Shown: piece after piece, positions 34,903 to 42,124 of the stretch | Position numbering within the stretch: position 1 is the first letter of the stretch | Layout of the letters: each line of letters opens with the position of its first letter | Source of the DNA: an uncultured Acidobacteriota bacterium | GTDB taxonomy: Bacteria > Acidobacteriota > Terriglobia > Bryobacterales > UBA6623 | Direction of reading: 5' to 3' | Assembly (NCBI GenBank): GCA_963805925.1 | Contig: CAWDWB010000009.1 | Span: 517,746-581,745 of the forward strand | Length of the DNA: 64,000 nt | Notes under the pieces: generated by a model | Databases searched by the model: none | What the model was told of the DNA's origin: nothing | What the model saw: the letters and a program-made list of their open reading frames with translations, nothing else | Made by a program: the position numbers and the translations under genes

Positions 34903-36243
34903 TCAATAACTGTCGAATAACGTGACCGTGTAGTCCTTGCTGGCCAGCATGTTTTCCAAGACCGGCCAGAGTCCCTGATGGGTGTCCGTGGCGACCCATG
35001 CTTGGCGCTGCGCTTCGCTGCGGAAGCTCAGTACGAAGCGATAGTTCATGCGGGCAGGCGGCTTGCCCATCAAGGCCGAGTCCAGTTTGAGCAACTTGAG
35101 GTCGATGTATCCCGGCTGCTTCGCGGCCGCCGGCCGGAACTCGGTTTCGAAACTGCGAACGAAGGCCGCTTCCTTCGCCGGGTCGACGTTCAAATCGACG
35201 TGCAACTCGATCCCGCGCGGAGCTGGTCCGTAGAGCGGGCGCATGCCGGGCACCGATAGCTTGATGCGGTAAAGGCTGGTTTCGGCCGTCATGTAGAGCG
35301 ACTTGCCGTCATCGCCCCAGGCGGCGTTGGCAGGACTCTCGGGCGGTTGGATTGTGCCCAGGTGCTTGCCGCTGGCGTCAAAAACCCAAACTCCGCCGGG
35401 ACCCGAACCGTAGACGTTGCCGGCTTCATCGACCTTCATGCCGTCCGGCAACCCGGCAGCTGGCTCGTTGGTCACATCGGCAAAAACTCGCCCGTTGGAC
35501 ACGGTGCCGTCGGCGTTCACGTCGTAGGCCATCCAGAACCTGTGGTTCTCATCGGAATTCGAAACATAGAGAGTCTGGTAGTCGGGCGAAAAGGCGATCC
35601 CATTGGGACGCGTCAGATCCTTCACCAAGACTTGTAACTCGCCGTTGGACAAGCGATAGACGCCGTTGAAGTCAAGTTCTTTTGCCGGGTCGTCATCTTG
35701 CGCCGGCAAGCCATAGGGCGGATCGGTGAAGTAGAGCGAACCGTCGCGATGGAAAACGAGATCGTTCGGGCTGTTGAGCTTCTTGCCCTCGAAGCTGTCG
35801 ACGAGCGTCGTCACCGTGCCGTCTTTGGCGATGCGGGCGATGCGTCGGTTGCCGTGTTGGCACAGCAGTACCGAGCCGTCCTTGTCATAGGTCATCCCGT
35901 TGGGGCCGATGAAGCCCCCCGCCGGCAGACTGTCTCCGTCATATCCGCCGGGACGCAGCACCTCGGTGACGGTTCCGTCGGGAGCGTACTGGCGCACCAC
36001 GTTGCCGACGACGTCGCTGAACCATAGCGAACCGTCCTCGCGCCAAAGCGGACCCTCGATAAAGCTGAAGCCGCCGGCAAGCTTCTCGATCTCGGCGCCT
36101 GGCGGGACGATGGCGTCCAAGGCGGGGTCGAGCCGCTGGACGCTCCCTGTTGAGGGTGCTTCGGGTTCGGGAGCTGGAGGCGGCGCCGTGCAGCCGAAAG
36201 CGACGAGAACAAACAGAGTGAATAGAGAGTGTTTTTTGAGCAT
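34903..36243 (-). CDS. SMP-30/gluconolactonase/LRE-family lipoprotein with a C-terminal ABM-like domain
   Basis: ATG at 36243. MLKKHSLFTLFVLVAFGC contains a lipobox. FIEGPLWREDGSLWFSDV and six-blade propeller-like repeats. The last roughly 100 aa resemble an antibiotic-biosynthesis-monooxygenase fold. Confidence 0.7.
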   Translation of the reverse strand: MLKKHSLFTLFVLVAFGCTAPPPAPEPEAPSTGSVQRLDPALDAIVPPGAEIEKLAGGFSFIEGPLWREDGSLWFSDVVGNVVRQYAPDGTVTEVLRPGGYDGDSLPAGGFIGPNGMTYDKDGSVLLCQHGNRRIARIAKDGTVTTLVDSFEGKKLNSPNDLVFHRDGSLYFTDPPYGLPAQDDDPAKELDFNGVYRLSNGELQVLVKDLTRPNGIAFSPDYQTLYVSNSDENHRFWMAYDVNADGTVSNGRVFADVTNEPAAGLPDGMKVDEAGNVYGSGPGGVWVFDASGKHLGTIQPPESPANAAWGDDGKSLYMTAETSLYRIKLSVPGMRPLYGPAPRGIELHVDLNVDPAKEAAFVRSFETEFRPAAAKQPGYIDLKLLKLDSALMGKPPARMNYRFVLSFRSEAQRQAWVATDTHQGLWPVLENMLASKDYTVTLFDSY

Positions 36244-36439
36244 GAGCAGCGACCAGTTTTGAGAACGCCGCAATTGTAGCTCTTCCGGGCTGCTTGGCGG
36301 AGGGGTGAATCAGTTGACGCAGCGCCGTTGCTGTCCGACAATCGGGCCGGAACGATCAATGCCGAGGAGAACGAAACGGATCGAATGGACTGCGCGTTGG
36401 GCGGGCTTTCTGTTGATCTTGGCGGCCGGCGCCGTTCTC

Positions 36440-36487
36440 GGGGGAAACCGGGGGGAAACCGGGGGGAAACGGGGGGAAACCGGGACA
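36440..36487. repeat. Tandem 11-bp repeat GGGGAAACCGG x4 (one unit lacks a C), ending in the R-element TIR half-site AAACCGGGACA
   Basis: Read directly: gGGGGAAACCGGGGGGAAACCGGGGGGAAACGGGGGGAAACCGGGACA. Confidence 0.85.
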
Positions 36488-37255
36488 TCCATGATAGGTA
36501 TTTGTCAAGGATGGACGCAAGTAGATCCTGAGGCCGGTGGAGAGACCAGCGTTAGTATGGCTCAGCGAAGAGAGAAGCGGACAGAGCCTTACGGGGTCAA
36601 CGGCCAGCGTGACTGACATCCATGAGGCTGCAGCGGGCCTGAGGGCCGTAGCAGAAGTTTCAGCTTAGGGTTAGAGCCGCGTCGGCCTCGAAACAGTCGA
36701 GAACGGTCGCAGGCGGGCCTTACGGCCTTGGCGCAGTGCCCGGATCGGCGCAGGACCGAGCGGGCGGCTTGTCTCCGGCTTCGCCCGAGAATCTTGTGCT
36801 CCTCCTCAGGCCGCTCGCGTACGCGGCCGAAGGGCTCGCTGGAGCGGTCCACGGCGAGAAGGTAAGCGACCAGCTTGCGCGCCACCGCCAGGTCGCGCGG
36901 TTGCGCGAGCGGTGCAATAACTCCCGCTCATGAACGGCCTGGAGTTCGGGGTTGAAGCGAGGCGTCGAGTGTTCGCGGCCTCGTAAGCAGGTGCATGCAG
37001 GTGCTTGTTGCGCTGCTTGCGACAACGGCGCGCGCTGCGTCTTGCCCGACCGACTCGCGTTGCGCCGCGCAGCAGTCAACGCAGTAGCTCACCGCCCGAC
37101 GCACCGAGCTGAATCGCTAGGGTTCAGCGACCTCCAAGGCCCACGTGGAGGGCTCGAAGACCTTGTACCCACGCCGTCGAATGGATTGCCGAAGCGGGCG
37201 ACAGCGTTCTCTCAACAGCCGATGTTGGGCGAGCCCTTGCAGCGAGACGCCGTTC
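36488..37255 (-). mobile_element. Degraded, 5'-deleted copy of the IS110/IS1111-family element (3' arm plus 3' part of the transposase gene)
   Basis: Collinear with 39724..40467 of the intact copy. It starts with the same TCCATGATAGGTATTTGTCAAGGATGGACGC and has many substitutions and indels that break the transposase frame (ORF fragments 36589..36885, 36720..37079). Homology ends at ...GACGCCGTTC. Confidence 0.75.
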
Positions 37256-37271
37256 GGGGAAACCGGGGGAG

Positions 37272-37448
37272 AAACCGGGACAGCCTCAATTAGCATTGGC
37301 CCCATCTCTAAGTCATTGATTCAACTAGATCTACGACGAGAATCGGAGCGGCGCGATATCGCGTCTTTAGGCTGCAACTGATTGAATAATAAAAGCTTCT
37401 GCTCTCAGAACAGATTCTGCTTGATTACAATTGAGGCTGTCCCGGTTT
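37272..37448. mobile_element. R1: 177-bp MITE-like element with perfect 20-bp terminal inverted repeats
   Basis: Left TIR AAACCGGGACAGCCTCAATT (37272-37291), right TIR AATTGAGGCTGTCCCGGTTT (37429-37448). The interior is AT-richer and 100% identical to R2 and R3. Confidence 0.85.
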
Positions 37449-37935
37449 GCCCCACTCGATCTAGCTCCTCGATTAGTTGCAACACCGAAACACGCTCGTC
37501 CTCATGGAGTTCAAACCAACGCCCACCGGTCAAAGTATCGACTGTGGCCTCGGCGATGTATGCGTTCTCGGCATCTGAACTGAACCATACGGAAAGATCT
37601 CCTCTATCGATACAAAGACGATAGTCGAATCGCGAGCCTCCTCCTTCCGTCGAATCCCGTTCTACCGAAACTGTCTCTTCAAGGACGCGCAAGAGTTTTT
37701 GCTTCAGCGATGCAGAAATCCTCTGACTCGAAACCAGATATCTCTCATCCTTCAATGCCGCTGCTGCCACAGCAGTGCGTGTCAGAACTTGCGGCGACAG
37801 GAAGTAGACTCTCATGACGTCATCGGCCGAGACTGCCGTACAGCCCGCGAAGGCCCCAACCCAAGCTGCGGCAACGACAATCGACAACACCAACAATGCC
37901 AACAACCGTCGTGGACTAATGGGCGTAGAAGTCAT
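37405..37935 (-). CDS. Hypothetical lipoprotein, immunity-like orphan; the last 14 codons are read from R1
   Basis: MTSTPISPRRLLALLVLSIVVAAAWVGAFAGC contains a lipobox. AAGGTGA RBS. The ATG overlaps a preceding TGA (ATGA). The ORF leaves native sequence at 37448/37449 and terminates inside R1. Confidence 0.45.
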   Translation of the reverse strand: MTSTPISPRRLLALLVLSIVVAAAWVGAFAGCTAVSADDVMRVYFLSPQVLTRTAVAAAALKDERYLVSSQRISASLKQKLLRVLEETVSVERDSTEGGGSRFDYRLCIDRGDLSVWFSSDAENAYIAEATVDTLTGGRWFELHEDERVSVLQLIEELDRVGQTGTASIVIKQNLF

Positions 37936-38001
37936 ACTTCACCTTTTGTTGGCCGCGCGCCGCTTCTTCGAGCTTGAGCATGGACGCCGCGCTTGTTGGG
38001 G

Positions 38002-38178
38002 AAACCGGGACAGCCTCAATTAGCATTGGCCCCATCTCTAAGTCATTGATTCAACTAGATCTACGACGAGAATCGGAGCGGCGCGATATCGCGTCTTTAG
38101 GCTGCAACTGATTGAATAATAAAAGCTTCTGCTCTCAGAACAGATTCTGCTTGATTACAATTGAGGCTGTCCCGGTTT
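38002..38178. mobile_element. R2: second identical copy of the 177-bp MITE-like element, same orientation as R1
   Basis: Base-for-base identical to 37272..37448. Confidence 0.85.
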
Positions 38179-38204
38179 GCCCCCGGTTTGCCCCCGGTTT
38201 GCCC
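38171..38204. repeat. Tandem 11-bp repeat CCCGGTTTGCC x3, beginning inside the R2 right TIR
   Basis: Read directly: CCCGGTTTGCCCCCGGTTTGCCCCCGGTTTGCCC. Confidence 0.85.
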
Positions 38205-38456
38205 CGCAAGCGAGGCTTCGTGGCGGCTCAGCCGACCGAAGCCGGGGTCGCTCCCGCCCTTCCCCTGACCCCCAAAACGGGGTCCTGCCGCCACCGCTCC
38301 GCTGTACTTCGCTCACTCTTCGGCTCTTACCGGCCCAAACGGTGAACGCCTCCCATCGAAACTACGGTGAACGCCCCTTTTTTCCTGAGTTCACCCGCCT
38401 CCCGCCACGCCACGGGGGTAAAAAGGGCGGTCGTAGGATGTGGCGGGCACGTAGGT

Positions 38457-38903
38457 TTACAGAGTTAACCATCCATTGCCTACAATGCCTAGAATCGTCT
38501 CGAAGTCTCGCCGATCCAATACTTCACTAGTCTCTACTTGGTCATCGGTCCACATTTCGGGGGTGGAGAGCAGTCTAGTCAAGACGATCTGCGAACCTCG
38601 CGGACAACGCATGAGATAGTATTCCCGCACTATGCGGTCGCTGCTCCAATCCTTGTATTCAGAAGCTCGCGCCCAGTGGTGGGTCGAAACCAAATGCTCA
38701 AGCTCTTGATCTCTTCCGGTGCCGTCACCGACAAAAACTGACGCCAGTTTCACTAGCGCATGACCGTCAAGACTGCCCCCACATACCGAACATGGGCTAA
38801 ACCGATCACGGACAACAGCAAGAGTACGGTCGGCAGAGGACATGCGCTTCGGGCGCCAAGCAAATAGCTTTAACAGTCTATCCGACACACTAAGCATCAT
38901 CAT
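38457..38903 (-). CDS. Hypothetical protein, candidate immunity protein for the upstream glycine-zipper toxin tip
   Basis: 148-aa ORF starting 9 nt after the toxin stop, with GGACGAGGAAA-ATG. No recognisable domain. Its position is typical of Rhs/CDI immunity genes. Confidence 0.5.
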   Translation of the reverse strand: MMMLSVSDRLLKLFAWRPKRMSSADRTLAVVRDRFSPCSVCGGSLDGHALVKLASVFVGDGTGRDQELEHLVSTHHWARASEYKDWSSDRIVREYYLMRCPRGSQIVLTRLLSTPEMWTDDQVETSEVLDRRDFETILGIVGNGWLTL

Positions 38904-38912
38904 TTCCTCGTC

Positions 38913-39711
38913 CTAGTTCAGCCAATCGTAAATCTTGGTTGCCACTTTTTCGCCACCGATTCCGCCGGCGATGCCTCCACCTAGGGCACCTATAACTCCG
39001 CCAATCGCCGCTCCGGGAACGGCTCCCGCCCCACCAAACCATACGCCAACCGCTGCACCGACTTGCGCCCCAGCGGCACCGCCAATACTCCCAAGTGCAA
39101 CCGCTCCTGCCCACGTACCACCTTCCTGGGCTAGTGCACGCGATTTATTGTCTGCGGTTGCTACGTTATACGCTGATACGCCTGCACCGACAACCATGAG
39201 CGCTGGCCCGGCTTTACCCGCAACCCCCATCGCTGCGTCAACAGCAGCATTAGATTTCGATGCGGTACCGCCAACTCTCGCGGCTTCATTGGCGATAGGG
39301 CGCATAGTTTCGGCGATCGCCGCCCCCGTTGGGGAACTGGCGGCACGGGCCTCGATCTTGAGAGCGGTCCTTGCCGCCGATGCAACAGGATCTCCTTGCG
39401 GTGCTCCCTGCAACGTTTGCAGGCCCTGGTTGTAATTGGCTCGGGCGGCAGCATCCTGTGTTGCCTGGGTGCCCACACTCACGGCGGCACCTTGAACTGC
39501 CCGGCCCGCCGTCTCTTCATCCGTACAACGTTGTGTCCCATCCGGGCAACTGTCAGCTAGTCCATTCGGGTCAACTAGGCGAAGAGGATTATTAAGAACG
39601 TAAGCGTACGCGTTCCACGATTGAGGCTGAGACGCTCGAGCTGCCGCATTTCCCGGATCAACGCTCGTAAATCGCCCGAGGCTCGCCGACATGTACCGCG
39701 CCCCGAAGTGG
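38913..39711 (-). CDS. Orphan Rhs C-terminal tip: end of the RHS core (FGARYM...GRFTSVDP...NNPLRLVDPNGL) plus a glycine-zipper-rich C-terminal toxin domain; 5'-truncated
   Basis: RHS repeat-associated core signature, then a variable C-terminal domain ending in long G/A-rich zipper helices (GAAVGVWFGGAGAVPGAAIGGVIGALGGGIAGGIGG). Upstream homology ends at the R3/IS boundary. The ORF-track N-terminus MDVPVS is translated from TIR/IS sequence. Confidence 0.7.
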
Positions 39712-39723
39712 GAAACCGGGACA

Positions 39724-41159
39724 TCCATGATAGGTATTTGTCAAGGATGGACGCAGTCATCCTGAGGCCGGTGGAGAGACCAGCGTTAGTAGGTCAGCGA
39801 AGAGCGAAGCGGACCGAGCCTTACGGGGTCAACGGGCCAAGCGTGACCAGACATCCATGAGCTGCAGCGGGCCTGAGGGCCGTAGCAGAAGTTTCAGTTA
39901 GGGTTAGAGCCCGTCGGCCTCGAAACAGTCAGAACGGTCGCAGCGGGCCTTACGGCCTTGGCGCAGTCCCGGATCGGCGAGGACCGACGGGCGGCTTGTC
40001 TCCGGCTTCGCCCGGAATCTTGTTCTCCTCCTCAGGCCGCTCGCGTACGCGGCGCGAAGGGCTCGCCGGAGCGGTCCACGGCGAGCAGGTAAGCGACCAG
40101 CTTGCGCGCCACCGCCAGCGTCGCGCGGTTGCGCGAGCCGTGCAATAACTCCCGCTCATGAACGGCCTGGAGTTCGGGGTTGAAGCGCGGCGCTAGTTTC
40201 GCCGCTTCGATCAGCACGGTCTGTAGGTGCTTGTTGCGCTGCTTGGACAAGGGCGCGCGTTGCGTCTTGCCCGCCGACTCGCGTTGCGCCGCGCACAGCC
40301 CGCAGTAGCTCACCGCCCGACGCACCGAGCTGAATCGCTCGGGTTCAGCGACCTCCAAGGCCCAGGTCAGCGCCGTCACTTGGCCGACGCCGCGAATCGA
40401 TTGCAAGCGGGCGACGCGTTCTCTCAACAGCCGATGTTGGGCGAGCCCTTTCAGCAGACGCCGTTCAAGATCTTCAAACGTCTCCAGCATTCCGCGGCTG
40501 AGAGCCAGCAGCTCGATCGCCGACTCCGGCGTGTGTTCGAGCGAATCGAGCAACTGGTAGAAGTAGCGTTTGCCGTGCAGCCGGTCCTTGACGTACTCCT
40601 CTCCGCACTCCATCAACAGGCCGGATATCTTGTTCTTCAGCCGCACCGCTTCGCGCACCAACAGGTTGCGGTAACGCAACACCCGCCGCAACTCGCGAAT
40701 CTCCCCCGGCGCCATGTAGCAGCCCGGCAACAGATCGCAGCGCGCCAGATCGCAGATCTTCTCCGCATCGAGGCGGTCGTTCTTCTTCTTGGCGCAGGCG
40801 ATCGCCTTCAGCATCGCCGGATGCGCCACTTGCAGCTCGGCCGCGTAGGGTTCCAAATGATCGTAAATCCAACCGGTGAACAGCGTCGCCTCCAACGCTC
40901 CGACCCACGGCCCGGCAACGCCTCGGCCCACTCGCTCAACGCCGCCCGCGTGGCCGCCACGCTGCCGGACGCGACCTTCTCTCCGGCAGTCGTCTTCACT
41001 GCATAGCTCACCGTTTTCTTGTGGACATCGAGCCCTACGTAGTAGAAACTCTCCATGGAATCCTCCTGGGTATGACTCGAGGCGCGCCGCTTCGCGGCTC
41101 GTCCTCGCTTTCTTTGTCCTCCAGGAGGATTCTTCTTGGCGCTCACCTATACATCAAAA
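39724..41159 (-). mobile_element. IS110/IS1111-family insertion sequence (about 1.44 kb) inserted in the left TIR of R3
   Basis: Flanks reconstitute the R TIR: AAACCGGGACA|IS|GCCTCAATT, with ACA/CA shared at both junctions. No terminal IRs, but subterminal IRs are present: ATGATAGGT (39727-39735) versus CACCTATACATC (41144-41155). Short 5' arm (about 100 bp) and long 3' arm (about 310 bp), as in the IS1111 subgroup. Confidence 0.85.
40032..41056 (-). pseudogene. IS110-family (DEDD/RuvC-like) transposase, interrupted by a 1-nt frameshift
   Basis: The N-terminus MESFYYVGLDVHKKTVSYAV is the IS110 DEDD_Tnp hallmark. The C-terminal part (40032..40931 frame) carries the Transposase_20-like region (SIRGVGQVTALTWALEV). 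The frames join as ...AEALPG|PWVGALEATLF if one C is added in GGGCC(C)G near 40912-40916. Confidence 0.85.
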
Positions 41160-41327
41160 CAGCCTCAATTAGCATTGGCCCCATCTCTAAGTCATTGATT
41201 CAACTAGATCTACGACGAGAATCGGAGCGGCGCGATATCGCGTCTTTAGGCTGCAACTGATTGAATAATAAAAGCTTCTGCTCTCAGAACAGATTCTGCT
41301 TGATTACAATTGAGGCTGTCCCGGTTT
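41160..41327. mobile_element. R3: third copy of the 177-bp MITE-like element; its first 11 bp lie at 39713..39723 on the other side of the IS
   Basis: 41160..41327 is identical to positions 10-177 of R1/R2. 39713..39723 = AAACCGGGACA. Confidence 0.85.
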
Positions 41328-41519
41328 GCCGAACCGGTTCCAACTCTGCGGATCGCCTACCCGTCCGGACGCCAAAAGTGGATCAGCGCTTGTGAACCGC
41401 CCCAGGGCCGACGACATATACCTGGCCAGGAAGTAATCCAACCCGGACTCTTGATCGCGTTCTTTGGCGGTGGACCGTTCCGCATCGTACGCGCACCAGC
41501 GCAACAGACCATGGGTCAA
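41328..41519 (-). pseudogene. Orphan Rhs core fragment (…AKERDQESGLDYFLARYMSSALGRFTSADP…PQSWNRF) truncated at the R3 boundary
   Basis: RHS core signature without YD repeats upstream or a toxin domain downstream. The reading frame runs into the R3 TIR and stops there. Confidence 0.6.
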
Positions 41520-42124
41520 AACCTGAAAAGTACCACTTTCTGCTTTGAACTTGATTGGTCAGGCTGCAAAACGCGACTCGCAAGGTTGCCGTCATGCACC
41601 GCGACAATAGTCGTTTCCCGGCCAGGCAGTAGATCGATCAAGACTTTGCCGTCCAATCCCGTTTGATACCACTTCTGACTTTCAGCATTTGCATCCCGGA
41701 CAAGAATCTCAGCGGATGCAACTGGAATCCCATCTCTATTTCGCACTTCCACTTGGCAATGCTTTACACGTCCGATGGTGAAGGCGTTGCCTGTCGTAGG
41801 CAAAACCTCCAGTGCTAACTTCAGGTCGACCGGATCGGTGTTGACCAAGAACTCTCGAACGGTCGTTCGACATAATCCATACGGACAAGTCGCAATAATC
41901 TGATAAAGCCCCATCGCAAGGTCTTGCGTCGGAACGGCGCCATTCCGATTCGTCAAGGCCCTTAAGCTTTCTCCCCTTCCTTCAAGAGATCTAACGATTA
42001 CAAGAACATCCGGGAAACCTAAACCTGATTTGTCCACGGTCACGACATGCACCTGGGCCGCTTGGGTGCAAACAGAGATACCCAGGAACAAGAATGAGAG
42101 ACGAACTTGCTTCCACTGGATCAT
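41516..42124 (-). CDS. Secreted CarboxypepD_reg-like protein; candidate immunity protein for the upstream HExxH toxin tip
   Basis: ATG at 42124 overlaps the toxin stop (ATGA). Signal peptide MIQWKQVRLSFLFLGISVCTQAAQ followed by two Ig-like beta-sandwich-type segments. Confidence 0.5.
   Translation of the reverse strand: MIQWKQVRLSFLFLGISVCTQAAQVHVVTVDKSGLGFPDVLVIVRSLEGRGESLRALTNRNGAVPTQDLAMGLYQIIATCPYGLCRTTVREFLVNTDPVDLKLALEVLPTTGNAFTIGRVKHCQVEVRNRDGIPVASAEILVRDANAESQKWYQTGLDGKVLIDLLPGRETTIVAVHDGNLASRVLQPDQSSSKQKVVLFRF

What the first reader, a model, noticed from the sequence alone, without database searches (positions are those of the whole stretch)
39724..40031. Candidate guide (bridge/seek) RNA in the 310-bp 3' arm of the IS
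The non-coding arm downstream of the transposase stop contains three relevant matches:
- An exact internal copy of the IS terminus, ACATCCATGA (39721-39730 and 39851-39860). It is also kept in the degraded copy at about 36610.
- GTCCCGG (39966-39972), matching the target TIR ...CTGTCCCGGTTT.
- CCTGAGGCCGG (39761-39771), matching TTGAGGC of the other target half.

Published work on IS110/IS1111 elements shows that a structured ncRNA in the long non-coding arm carries loops complementary to both the element ends (donor) and the target. The layout here fits that model, with the MITE TIR as the programmed target. The 10-mer repeat is unlikely by chance in 300 nt. The 6-7-mers alone are weak evidence.
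Basis: partly seen in the sequence, partly recalled or inferred. Interest (0 to 1): 0.7.

Follow-up and report, generated by a model that had tools for sequence, protein, structure and literature searches.

The report
Guide RNA gene of an IS1111-type element
The non-coding tail of this insertion sequence encodes a folded bridge/seek RNA whose loops match the element's own ends and the transposon repeat it inserted into, which makes it a well-supported but expected new example of the RNA-guided IS110/IS1111 system described in 2024.

Summary
The finding is real and its main interpretation holds. The element lies on the minus strand and spans 39724-41159, with a shared TG(T) crossover at both ends. 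It is an IS1111-type IS110-family insertion sequence, inserted in the terminal inverted repeat of a 181-bp MITE.

Its 308-nt arm downstream of the transposase gene encodes a conserved RNA of about 170 nt (39827-39992, minus strand). Across 27 lineages, 31 of 35 predicted base pairs show compensatory changes.

- **Target module:** CCGGGAC (39966-39972) is complementary to the target right half GTCCCGG. A short CUGU (39925-39928) matches the left half.
- **Donor module:** UGAAAC (39891-39896) pairs with the left end. UCAUGGAUGU (39851-39860) copies the right end plus the crossover bases.

Both target guides covary with the flanking DNA across 24-25 lineages (0 of 100,000 permutations reached the observed match). 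Both donor guides change together with the element ends in several lineages.

The third (39761-39771) is a chance match.

The window copy has a 1-nt frameshift in the transposase gene, and its left target guide matches the MITE poorly. It may therefore be inactive.

This is a new member of a known kind, of modest interest.

The parts
39724..41159 (-). Insertion sequence proper: 1436 bp, or 1438 bp with one copy of the TG crossover dinucleotide. The shared trinucleotide TGT (transposase strand) lies at 39721-39723 and 41159-41161.
   Evidence: An intact MITE repeat reads GGAAACCGGGAC|AGCCTCAATT (for example 38000-38021). Here it is split into 39711-39722 and 41162-41171.
40032..41056 (-). IS110-family DEDD transposase gene. 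A 1-nt deletion frameshift lies within 40902-40918; the repaired protein is 341 aa.
   Evidence: Pfam PF01548 and PF02371. NCBIfam NF033542, 'IS110 family RNA-guided transposase', 194.5 bits against a cutoff of 140. The frameshift is visible in the three-frame translation. Relatives have intact genes of 341-342 aa.
39827..39992 (-). Conserved core of the bridge/seek RNA, about 166 nt: helices P1 to P4 plus four guide segments.
   Evidence: Alignment A1 of 27 lineages. RNAalifold predicts 35 pairs, 31 with compensatory changes. 95.8% of cells are paired, against 32-42% when partners are slid.
39978..39992 (-). P1 basal stem, 5' arm (GCCCGUCGGuCCUCG).
   Evidence: It pairs with 39909-39922. 12 of 13 pairs have changes on both sides.
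39966..39972 (-). Right target guide CCGGGAC, on the 5' strand of the target-binding internal loop. It is complementary to the top strand of the target right half G-TCCCGG.
   Evidence: 7 of 7 Watson-Crick pairs in the window. Covariation at positions 6-10 in 25 lineages: 85 of 125 matches against 42.3 ± 5.3 in permutations, with 0 of 100,000 reaching the observed value.
39943..39964 (-). P2 tip hairpin of the target module.
   Evidence: All 7 pairs in helices 3 and 4 show compensatory changes.
39925..39928 (-). Left target guide CUGU, on the 3' strand of the internal loop. It has the same sequence as the target top strand C-TG-T, so it pairs with the bottom strand. Upstream bases match poorly in the window: cugaC against gaggC.
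   Evidence: In the family, the 5 nt before TG match the left flank 84 of 120 times against 42.7 ± 4.8, with 0 of 100,000 permutations reaching that value. In the window only 2 of 5 match.
39909..39922 (-). P1 basal stem, 3' arm (CGAGGcCGACGGGC).
39891..39897 (-). Right donor guide (C)UGAAAC, in the conserved linker. It is complementary to the left-end start G-TTTTG (41155-41160) through 4 Watson-Crick and 2 wobble pairs.
   Evidence: Position 5 covaries with the left end. TTTCAATG goes with cuGaa, TTTGAATG with cuCaa, GATAGA with UCUAUC (L057), and TTTAG with UUAA (L060).
39862..39888 (-). P3 hairpin between the two donor guides.
   Evidence: 6 of 7 pairs show compensatory changes.
39851..39860 (-). 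Left donor guide UCAUGGAUGU. It equals the right end TCATGGA plus TG plus T, and pairs with the bottom strand of the donor.
   Evidence: Exact copy of 39721-39730. ATGGAT changes to ATAGAT in both guide and right end in L060, L062 and L070; L058 is an exception.
39827..39848 (-). P4 hairpin just 3' of the left donor guide (GGUCAcg...guUGACC).
   Evidence: 6 of 7 pairs show compensatory changes.
39724..39768 (-). Conserved right-end terminal block. It holds a small hairpin (GGAUG...CAUCC), TTGACA (39739-39744), the subterminal inverted repeat (39727-39735) and the left donor half-site.
   Evidence: 95-97.5% identical to relatives whose transposase is only about 75% identical. Reading TTGACA as the -35 of a circle-junction promoter is an inference.
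41145..41154 (-). Left-end subterminal inverted repeat ATGTATAGGT, the partner of 39727-39735.
   Evidence: Local alignment gives 9 of 10 matches with one gap. The same pattern occurs in L001, L009, L065 and L074.
39711..39721 (-). Target right half (transposase strand TCCCGGTTTCC), the outer part of the MITE inverted repeat.
41162..41171 (-). Target left half (transposase strand AATTGAGGC), the inner part of the MITE inverted repeat.
36474..37255 (-). Second, decayed and 5'-truncated copy of the same element, next to the same repeat half-site. Its RNA target module is at 36678-36767 and its left donor guide copy at 36616-36625.
   Evidence: BLAST 91% identity over 788 bp. The RNA model scores it 27.4 bits, E = 0.0016, with indels in the guide.

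Best explanation
**What it is**
The interval is the right-end non-coding arm of an IS1111-type (IS110 family) insertion sequence on the minus strand. It encodes that element's bridge RNA, also called seekRNA.

**Layout of the RNA**
The RNA has two modules.
- *Target module (about 85 nt, 39909-39992).* A long basal stem P1 and a tip hairpin P2 enclose an internal loop. The 5' strand of the loop carries CCGGGAC, which pairs with the top strand of the target right half (G-TCCCGG). The 3' strand carries CUGU, which pairs with the bottom strand of the left half (C-TG-T).
- *Donor module.* UGAAAC lies in a conserved linker and pairs with the top strand of the left-end start. After hairpin P3, UCAUGGAUGU pairs with the bottom strand of the right end plus the crossover bases. 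Hairpin P4 follows.

**How it most likely works**
By analogy with ISEc11, ISPa11, ISKpn4 and IS621, the DEDD/serine recombinase binds this RNA. The complex brings the joined right-left ends of the excised circle together with a CTGTCCCGG site, and exchanges strands at the TG core. Here that site is in the MITE terminal inverted repeat.

**Shown here**
- the sequence matches
- the conserved, covarying fold
- guide-to-flank and guide-to-end covariation
- empty and occupied target sites in the same window

**Inferred**
- transcription, probably read through from the transposase gene under a circle-junction promoter (TTGACA, N18, TGtTTTGAT)
- processing of the RNA
- protein binding
- catalysis
For: - **Transposase family.** Pfam PF01548 and PF02371; NCBIfam IS110 RNA-guided transposase at 194.5 bits; C-terminal similarity to the IS621 and ISCro4 structures.
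- **Insertion site.** Intact MITE repeats in the window show CTGT|CCCGG as one contiguous sequence, so the flank belongs to the target and not to the element.
- **Structure.** 35 consensus pairs, 31 with compensatory changes, 95.8% of cells paired, covariation score 0.564 against 0.216 in shuffles (0 of 500), and 32-42% paired when partners are slid.
- **Independent model.** A covariance model from 25 relatives finds only the two element copies in 64 kb: 69.5 bits, E = 4e-12, and 27.4 bits.
- **Right target guide against right flank.**
  - window: CCGGGAC with GTCCCGG
  - L003 group: GGGGGAC with GTCCC[CT][CT] in 9 of 9 copies
  - perfect 10-mers in L063, L069 and L070
  - L073: GGUGCC with GGCACC
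  - L060: CGAAGAC with GTCTTGG, one mismatch
  - permutation test: 0 of 100,000 reach the observed match
- **Left target guide against left flank.** Also 0 of 100,000.
- **Donor guides.** They covary with the left and right ends.
- **Agreement with published IS1111 RNAs.** The top-strand match lies 5' of the bottom-strand match, and the module sizes fit the reported seekRNAs of 82-96 nt and about 154 nt (PMC11187229). The donor guides lie in multi-loop-like joints, as noted for IS1111 (PMC11208160).
Against: - There is no expression or binding data.
- Rfam 15 gave no hit. I do not know whether it contains a bridge RNA family, and the published models were not available.
- The single-sequence fold is not thermodynamically unusual (z = -1.15 and -1.77).
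- In the window copy the left target guide matches the MITE in only 2 of the 5 bases before TG.
- In the window copy the right donor guide needs two wobble pairs.
- The transposase gene is frameshifted, so this copy may be inactive.
- Lineages in the permutation tests are related to each other, but their flanks come from different genomes.
Confidence: 0.9

Rival explanations
1. The internal 10-mer is mainly a DNA-level feature. It would be a second copy of the right end that the recombinase, or replication slippage, uses as an alternative end, rather than an RNA guide.
For: In relatives, tandem arrays of the right-end tail start exactly at this internal site. Units are 100% identical: L034 has 142 bp x 7.5; L009 and L018 have four right ends each and L042, a separate lineage, has two. 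ISPpu9 forms several kinds of circle from duplicated end boxes (PMC12288879).
Against: The 10-mer sits at a fixed position between covarying hairpins P3 and P4 in all 27 lineages. It changes together with the right end. The paired guide for the left end lies on the other side of P3. The two readings are compatible: the guide's DNA necessarily mimics a donor half-site.
Confidence: 0.25
2. The arm is a structured 3' untranslated region that controls transposase mRNA stability or termination, and it has no guide function. The matches to the target would then be coincidental.
For: The region is GC-rich and structured. No internal promoter was found in the element.
Against: This reading does not explain why loop bases track the flanking DNA and the element ends across 24-25 lineages, with 0 of 100,000 permutations reaching the observed match. 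No terminator-like site was found on the RNA strand.
Confidence: 0.03
3. The RNA gene is genuine, but this copy is a dead relic. The transposase is broken and the guides have drifted, so nothing works here now.
For: There is a 1-nt deletion frameshift within 40902-40918, while relatives are intact. The left target guide matches the MITE worse than that of relative L001. Five unoccupied CTGTCCCGG sites lie in MITE repeats within 4 kb. The second copy is decayed.
Against: The frameshift lies in a short C/G run (CCGGGCCG), a context where I would expect long-read assemblies to make indel errors; that is my own knowledge, not tested here. All RNA helices are intact in copy A. Lineages L003 and L009 also have poor left-guide matches yet are present in about 10 and about 30 copies. 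A transposase supplied in trans from another copy elsewhere in the genome could still use this RNA and these ends.
Confidence: 0.5

Closest known systems
seekRNAs of the IS1111-family elements ISEc11, ISPa11 and ISKpn4 (Siddiquee et al. 2024, PMC11187229)
   Same: - The RNA is encoded in the long non-coding region downstream of the transposase gene.
- The segment complementary to the target top strand lies 5' of the segment complementary to the bottom strand, and the two overlap at the insertion point.
- The sizes fit: the target module here is about 85 nt, against reported short forms of 82-96 nt; the whole RNA is about 145-170 nt, against a long form of about 154 nt.
- Subterminal inverted repeats are present.
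- The targets are repeated palindromic elements.
   Different: - The transposase is distant: the best plasmid-borne relative is 59% identical and most are below 31%. I could not compare it with the named elements directly.
- The target here is a MITE inverted repeat in an Acidobacteriota-like genome.
- The C-terminal motif reads GLCAAQRESAG, that is SA rather than SG or TG.
- Nothing here is tested experimentally.
IS621 bridge RNA (Durrant et al. 2024, PMC11208160; Hiraizumi et al. 2024 and 2026, PMC11208158 and PMC13626964)
   Same: - Two modules, each with one guide for the bottom strand of the left half and one for the top strand of the right half.
- A dinucleotide core shared by donor and target.
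- A recombinase with DEDD and Tnp domains; the C-terminal domain matches 8wt6 at E = 1.3e-6.
   Different: - In IS621 the RNA is in the left end, upstream of the gene, and is driven directly by the circle-junction promoter.
- The order of guides within each module is reversed.
- The IS621 core is CT; here it is TG.
- The donor guides here flank a hairpin in open joints rather than a closed internal loop.
[quoted passage not shown]
   Same: An IS1111-type element inserts at one fixed position and orientation in the terminal inverted repeat of another mobile element.
   Different: The host element is different (a 181-bp MITE against Tn21-family transposons) and so is the target sequence. I did not compare sequences.
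ISPpu9 and its Ssr9 module (Pares-Guillen et al. 2025, PMC12288879)
   Same: Duplicated end sequences inside or next to the element allow alternative circles and modular copies of the downstream RNA region. Relatives of the window element show tandem arrays of the right-end tail, or of the whole RNA gene plus tail.
   Different: - Ssr9 was reported as not required for ISPpu9 transposition.
- Here the duplicated sequence is the guide itself.
- The window shows no arrays; they occur only in related genomes.

Membership tests
IS110 family, IS1111 group insertion sequence | Transposase with an N-terminal DEDD RuvC-like domain and a C-terminal Tnp domain (PF01548 and PF02371). | tested here: met
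   (NF033542 at 194.5 bits, cutoff 140). The window gene needs one frameshift repaired.
IS110 family, IS1111 group insertion sequence | The longer non-coding region lies downstream of the transposase gene. | tested here: met
   The right arm is 308 nt (39724-40031) and the left arm 103 nt (41057-41159).
IS110 family, IS1111 group insertion sequence | Subterminal inverted repeats of about 7-17 bp. | tested here: met
   ATGTATAGGT (41145-41154) against ATG-ATAGGT (39727-39735): 9 of 10 with one gap, set 4-7 bp in from the ends. The same pattern is seen in four relatives.
IS110 family, IS1111 group insertion sequence | Site- and orientation-specific insertion with a short shared core instead of a conventional target duplication. 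| tested here: met
   TG(T) is shared at both junctions. Two copies in the window and about 60 insertions in relatives all lie next to G[T]CCC-type right flanks.
IS110 family, IS1111 group insertion sequence | Transposase length of 330-350 aa, and the C-terminal GL-P----S(T)G motif. | tested here: inconclusive
   The length fits at 341 aa. The motif region reads GLCAAQRESAG, with A in place of P and SA in place of SG (motif as given in PMC11187229).
IS110 family, IS1111 group insertion sequence | Phylogenetic placement with reference IS1111 transposases. | not tested
   No ISfinder reference sequences were available in these tools.
Bridge RNA / seekRNA | A conserved secondary structure in the long non-coding arm, on the transposase strand. 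| tested here: met
Bridge RNA / seekRNA | A target-binding loop with one segment complementary to each target strand, overlapping at the crossover. In IS1111 the top-strand match comes first. | tested here: met
   CCGGGAC (5' strand of the loop) pairs with the top strand. CUGU (3' strand) pairs with the bottom strand. The left match is short in the window but 5-8 nt in many relatives.
Bridge RNA / seekRNA | Donor-binding segments that match the right end plus core, and the core plus left end. | tested here: met
   UCAUGGAUGU matches 10 of 10. UGAAAC pairs with GTTTTG through 4 Watson-Crick and 2 wobble pairs.
Bridge RNA / seekRNA | Guides change together with targets and ends among relatives, which is the basis of programmability. 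| tested here: met
   Permutation tests give 0 of 100,000 for both target guides. Specific co-changes are seen for both donor guides.
Bridge RNA / seekRNA | A match to the published covariance models or to an Rfam family. | not testable with these tools
   Rfam 15 gave no relevant hit at E up to 10. The published models are not in the tool set. A model I built from relatives does hit.
Bridge RNA / seekRNA | The RNA is expressed, binds the transposase and is required for transposition. | not testable with these tools
   This needs RNA sequencing, co-purification and transposition assays.

The most novel reading that the evidence does not exclude
The left donor guide must copy the right end. Its DNA is therefore itself a donor-like half-site inside the element. 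In relatives this site, and two other internal TGTC sites, are the junctions of perfectly identical tandem arrays. Some arrays repeat the right-end tail. Others repeat the whole RNA gene plus tail. The recombinase may therefore amplify or mobilise its own guide-RNA gene as a separate module. The same activity might produce the 11-bp tandem repeats of the target right half seen next to some insertion sites.
Probability: 0.25. Interest if true: 0.6.

Novelty: new member of a known kind. Interest (0 to 1): 0.35.

Why it matters
The finding confirms that raw sequence reading can locate an RNA-guided recombinase system and its programmed target.

The family found here has about 25 lineages, some with 10-30 insertions per genome. 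It works as a natural specificity data set:
- The right target guide reads 7-10 nt.
- The left target guide can shrink to the core plus 1-2 nt without preventing spread.
- The first core base tolerates mismatch.

Such natural rules could help in designing IS1111-type bridge recombinases, which are less studied than IS621.

For annotating this genome, it explains why MITE ends are interrupted at one fixed position.

Tried and rejected
- **Rfam 15 scan** of 36000-42000 at E up to 10. It returned only two spurious hits, H19_3 and PyrR208.
- **Full-length covariance model** (191 positions). I used the 87-position target module instead.
- **Promoter scan** of the element. No sigma-70-like site was found on either strand, and the two terminator-like sites are on the wrong strand.
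- **Third motif** (39761-39771) as a left target guide. Rejected: it is variable in relatives and does not covary.
- **Alternative helix** pairing the linker GACC with the GGUC that follows the left donor guide, which would close the donor loop as in IS621. Rejected: L073 and L080 do not support it, while hairpin P4 covaries.
- **GT as the core.** Replaced by TG. The base after G varies with the target and with the right target guide (L062 and L070 have A, L069 has C, L073 has G). The T before G varies between copies of one element.
- **Protein search of plasmids** to find a named relative. It gave only generic 'IS110 family transposase' labels.
- **Thermodynamic z-scores** of the single sequence. 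They were uninformative.

Full report
**1. The observation**

- ACATCCATGA occurs at 39721, 39851, 36485 and 36616. That is 4 hits against 0.07 expected.
- The interval 39724-40031 is exactly the non-coding arm between the transposase stop codon (40032-40034) and the element's end.

**2. The element**

The element is on the minus strand.
- **Insertion site.** Intact copies of a 181-bp MITE lie at 37271-37450 and 38000-38180, and a third copy at 41159-41329 is missing its first 10 bp. All three are 100% identical over the aligned stretch. An intact terminal repeat reads GGAAACCGGGACAGCCTCAATT. Here it is split into 39711-39722 and 41162-41171. The element proper is therefore 39724-41159.
- **Crossover.** On the transposase strand, TGT is shared at both junctions. 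The unoccupied repeats show that CCCGG belongs to the target and not to the element.
- **Transposase.** The gene (41056 to 40032) carries PF01548 and PF02371. After repair of a 1-nt deletion in CCGGGCCG (within 40902-40918), it scores 194.5 bits on NCBIfam 'IS110 family RNA-guided transposase'. Its C-terminal domain matches the IS621 and ISCro4 structures.
- **IS1111-type layout.** The right arm is 308 nt and the left arm 103 nt. There is a 9-of-10 subterminal inverted repeat.
- **Second copy.** A truncated copy, 91% identical, lies at 36474-37255 next to the same half-site.

**3. Relatives**

A scan of one genome per species returned 80 loci encoding transposases 59-85% identical to the window's.
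- Most come from Bryobacterales and other Acidobacteriota assemblies. Others come from Desulfobacterota-like and further assemblies.
- Several genomes hold many copies: about 30 in OZ253444 and about 10 in CBDFIW01.
- Their transposase genes are intact at 341-342 aa.
- The ends follow the pattern [flank]C-TG-TTT(C/G)AATG...TATCATGGA-TG-[T]CCC(C/T)N.

**4. The RNA fold**

I aligned the downstream arms of 27 non-redundant lineages. The alignment shows one architecture.
- Basal stem P1 (window 39978-39992 with 39909-39922).
- An internal loop.
- Tip hairpin P2 (39943-39964).
- A highly conserved linker.
- Hairpin P3 (39862-39888).
- Hairpin P4 (39827-39848).

The support is as follows.
- RNAalifold predicts 35 pairs, and 31 of them show compensatory changes.
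- 95.8% of cells are paired, against 77.8% in shuffles and 32-42% when partners are slid.
- The covariation score is 0.564 against 0.216, with 0 of 500 shuffles reaching it.
- A covariance model of the target module, built from 25 relatives without the window copy or L001, finds exactly two places in the 64-kb window. They are 39910-39994 (69.5 bits, E = 4e-12) and the decayed copy at 36678-36767 (27.4 bits).
- The single-sequence fold recovers the same helices but is not energetically unusual.

**5. The four guides**

*Right target guide.* It lies on the 5' strand of the internal loop. The window has CCGGGAC (39966-39972), a perfect complement of G-TCCCGG.
- Relatives change in step with their flanks.
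  - GGGGGAC goes with GTCCC[CT][CT] in 9 of 9 copies.
  - UGGGGAC goes with GTCCC[CT] followed mostly by A or G.
  - Perfect 10-mers occur in L063, L069 and L070.
  - GGUGCC goes with GGCACC in L073.
  - CGAAGAC goes with GTCTTGG in L060, with one mismatch.
- At the variable positions 6-10, 85 of 125 pairs match, against 42.3 ± 5.3 in permutations. None of 100,000 permutations reaches the observed value.

*Left target guide.* It lies on the 3' strand of the loop and has the same sequence as the left flank.
- In the family, 84 of 120 positions match, against 42.7 ± 4.8, again with 0 of 100,000 permutations.
- In the window only C-UG-U fits; the bases before it read cugaC against gaggC.
- The closest relative, L001, carries UGAGGCUGU, which fits the window's MITE repeat TGAGGCTGT.
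- Lineages L003 and L009 also have poor left matches, yet are present in about 10 and about 30 copies. A short left guide therefore seems sufficient.

*Right donor guide.* UGAAAC lies at 39891-39896.
- It pairs with the left-end start.
- Position 5 covaries: C with G, G with C, A with U. L057 has GATAGA with UCUAUC.
- The window's left end GTTTTG pairs through two wobble pairs.

*Left donor guide.* UCAUGGAUGU lies at 39851-39860.
- It copies the right end plus TG plus T.
- ATGGAT changes to ATAGAT in both guide and right end in three lineages, with one exception.

*The core.* It is best read as TG.
- The following base tracks the target and the right target guide.
- The preceding T varies between copies of one element.

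**6. Comparison with published work**

- Siddiquee et al. (PMC11187229) describe the following for IS1111 elements.
  - The RNA comes from the downstream non-coding region.
  - Short forms are 82-96 nt and a long form is about 154 nt.
  - The top-strand match lies 5' of the bottom-strand match.
  - No promoter is seen other than the one formed at the circle junction.
- Durrant et al. (PMC11208160) predict bridge RNAs in 93% of IS1111 elements. They note that the donor-binding bases often sit in multi-loop structures.

All of this fits what is seen here. I found no sigma-70-like promoter inside the element. The strongly conserved TTGACA at 39739-39744 would lie 18 nt before TGtTTTGAT in the circle junction. 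That promoter reading is an inference.

**7. The third motif**

CCTGAGGCCGG (39761-39771) lies in a variable stretch between P4 and the conserved terminal block. L001 has the same left target but reads CATGAGGA there. It is a chance match.

**8. Status of this copy**

- The transposase is frameshifted. The deletion lies in a short C/G run, so an assembly error is possible.
- The left target guide is weak.
- Five free CTGTCCCGG sites sit in nearby MITE repeats.
- The RNA helices are intact.

I put the chance that this copy is currently inactive at about one half.

**9. Verdict**

This is a real bridge/seek RNA gene of an IS1111-type element programmed for a MITE terminal repeat. The kind is known, so I rate it a new member of a known kind with modest interest (0.35).

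The most novel reading left open concerns the tandem arrays in relatives. Their junctions lie at the DNA that encodes the left donor guide and at other internal TGTC sites. This suggests the element can amplify its own RNA module.

Noticed in passing
L034:2862-4020; L017:2593-3586; also L009, L018, L026, L033, L042: Relatives carry perfectly identical tandem arrays downstream of the transposase gene.
- 142-bp units start exactly at the DNA of the left donor guide (x 7.5 in L034).
- 330-bp units hold the whole bridge RNA gene plus the right-end tail (x 3 in L017 and L033).
- Units of about 610 bp start inside the transposase gene (L026).
- Every junction reads CATGGAT|GTC....

No such array is present in the window.
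   Followed up: partly
window 36440-36484 and 38171-38205; L048, L007, L033, L072, L022, L020 right flanks: The DNA just outside the insertion point is often a short tandem repeat of a unit resembling the target right half. In the window the units are GGGGGAAACCG x 4.2 and CCCGGTTTGCC x 3.2. Similar 9-16-bp repeats flank relatives. The cause is unknown.
   Followed up: partly
window 41058-41069 and 41121-41132: The left end has a long-range inverted repeat, GAATCCTCCTGG ... CCAGGAGGATTC. It would sequester the GGAGG ribosome-binding site just before the transposase ATG at 41056. Similar pairs occur in relatives.
   Followed up: no
window 37271-37450, 38000-38180, 41159-41329: Three copies of a 181-bp MITE with 22-bp terminal inverted repeats are 100% identical to each other. 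The second element copy beside one of them is only 91% identical to the first. This suggests recent MITE spread or gene conversion.
   Followed up: partly
window 40902-40918: The transposase gene has a 1-nt deletion in CCGGGCCG that splits it into two frames. It could be a real pseudogene or a homopolymer assembly error.
   Followed up: partly
L010, L024, L027, L035, L040, L079 right junctions: The last base before the G of the core differs between copies of the same element: A, C or G instead of T. One possible reading is that target sites mismatched at the first core position can still be used and leave a mark at the junction.
   Followed up: no
L074-L078, L050, L053 flanks: In several relatives the target lies in the 3' half of a palindrome, for example GGGGACAGTCTAGACTGTCCCC (L074). 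The elements therefore insert into hairpin-forming repeats, as reported for other IS1111 members.
   Followed up: no
window 39746-39764: A small hairpin (GGAUG...CAUCC) lies just upstream of the conserved TTGACA in the right-end terminal block. Distant relatives have a different hairpin (GGGAAA...UUUCCC) at the same place. Its function is unknown.
   Followed up: no
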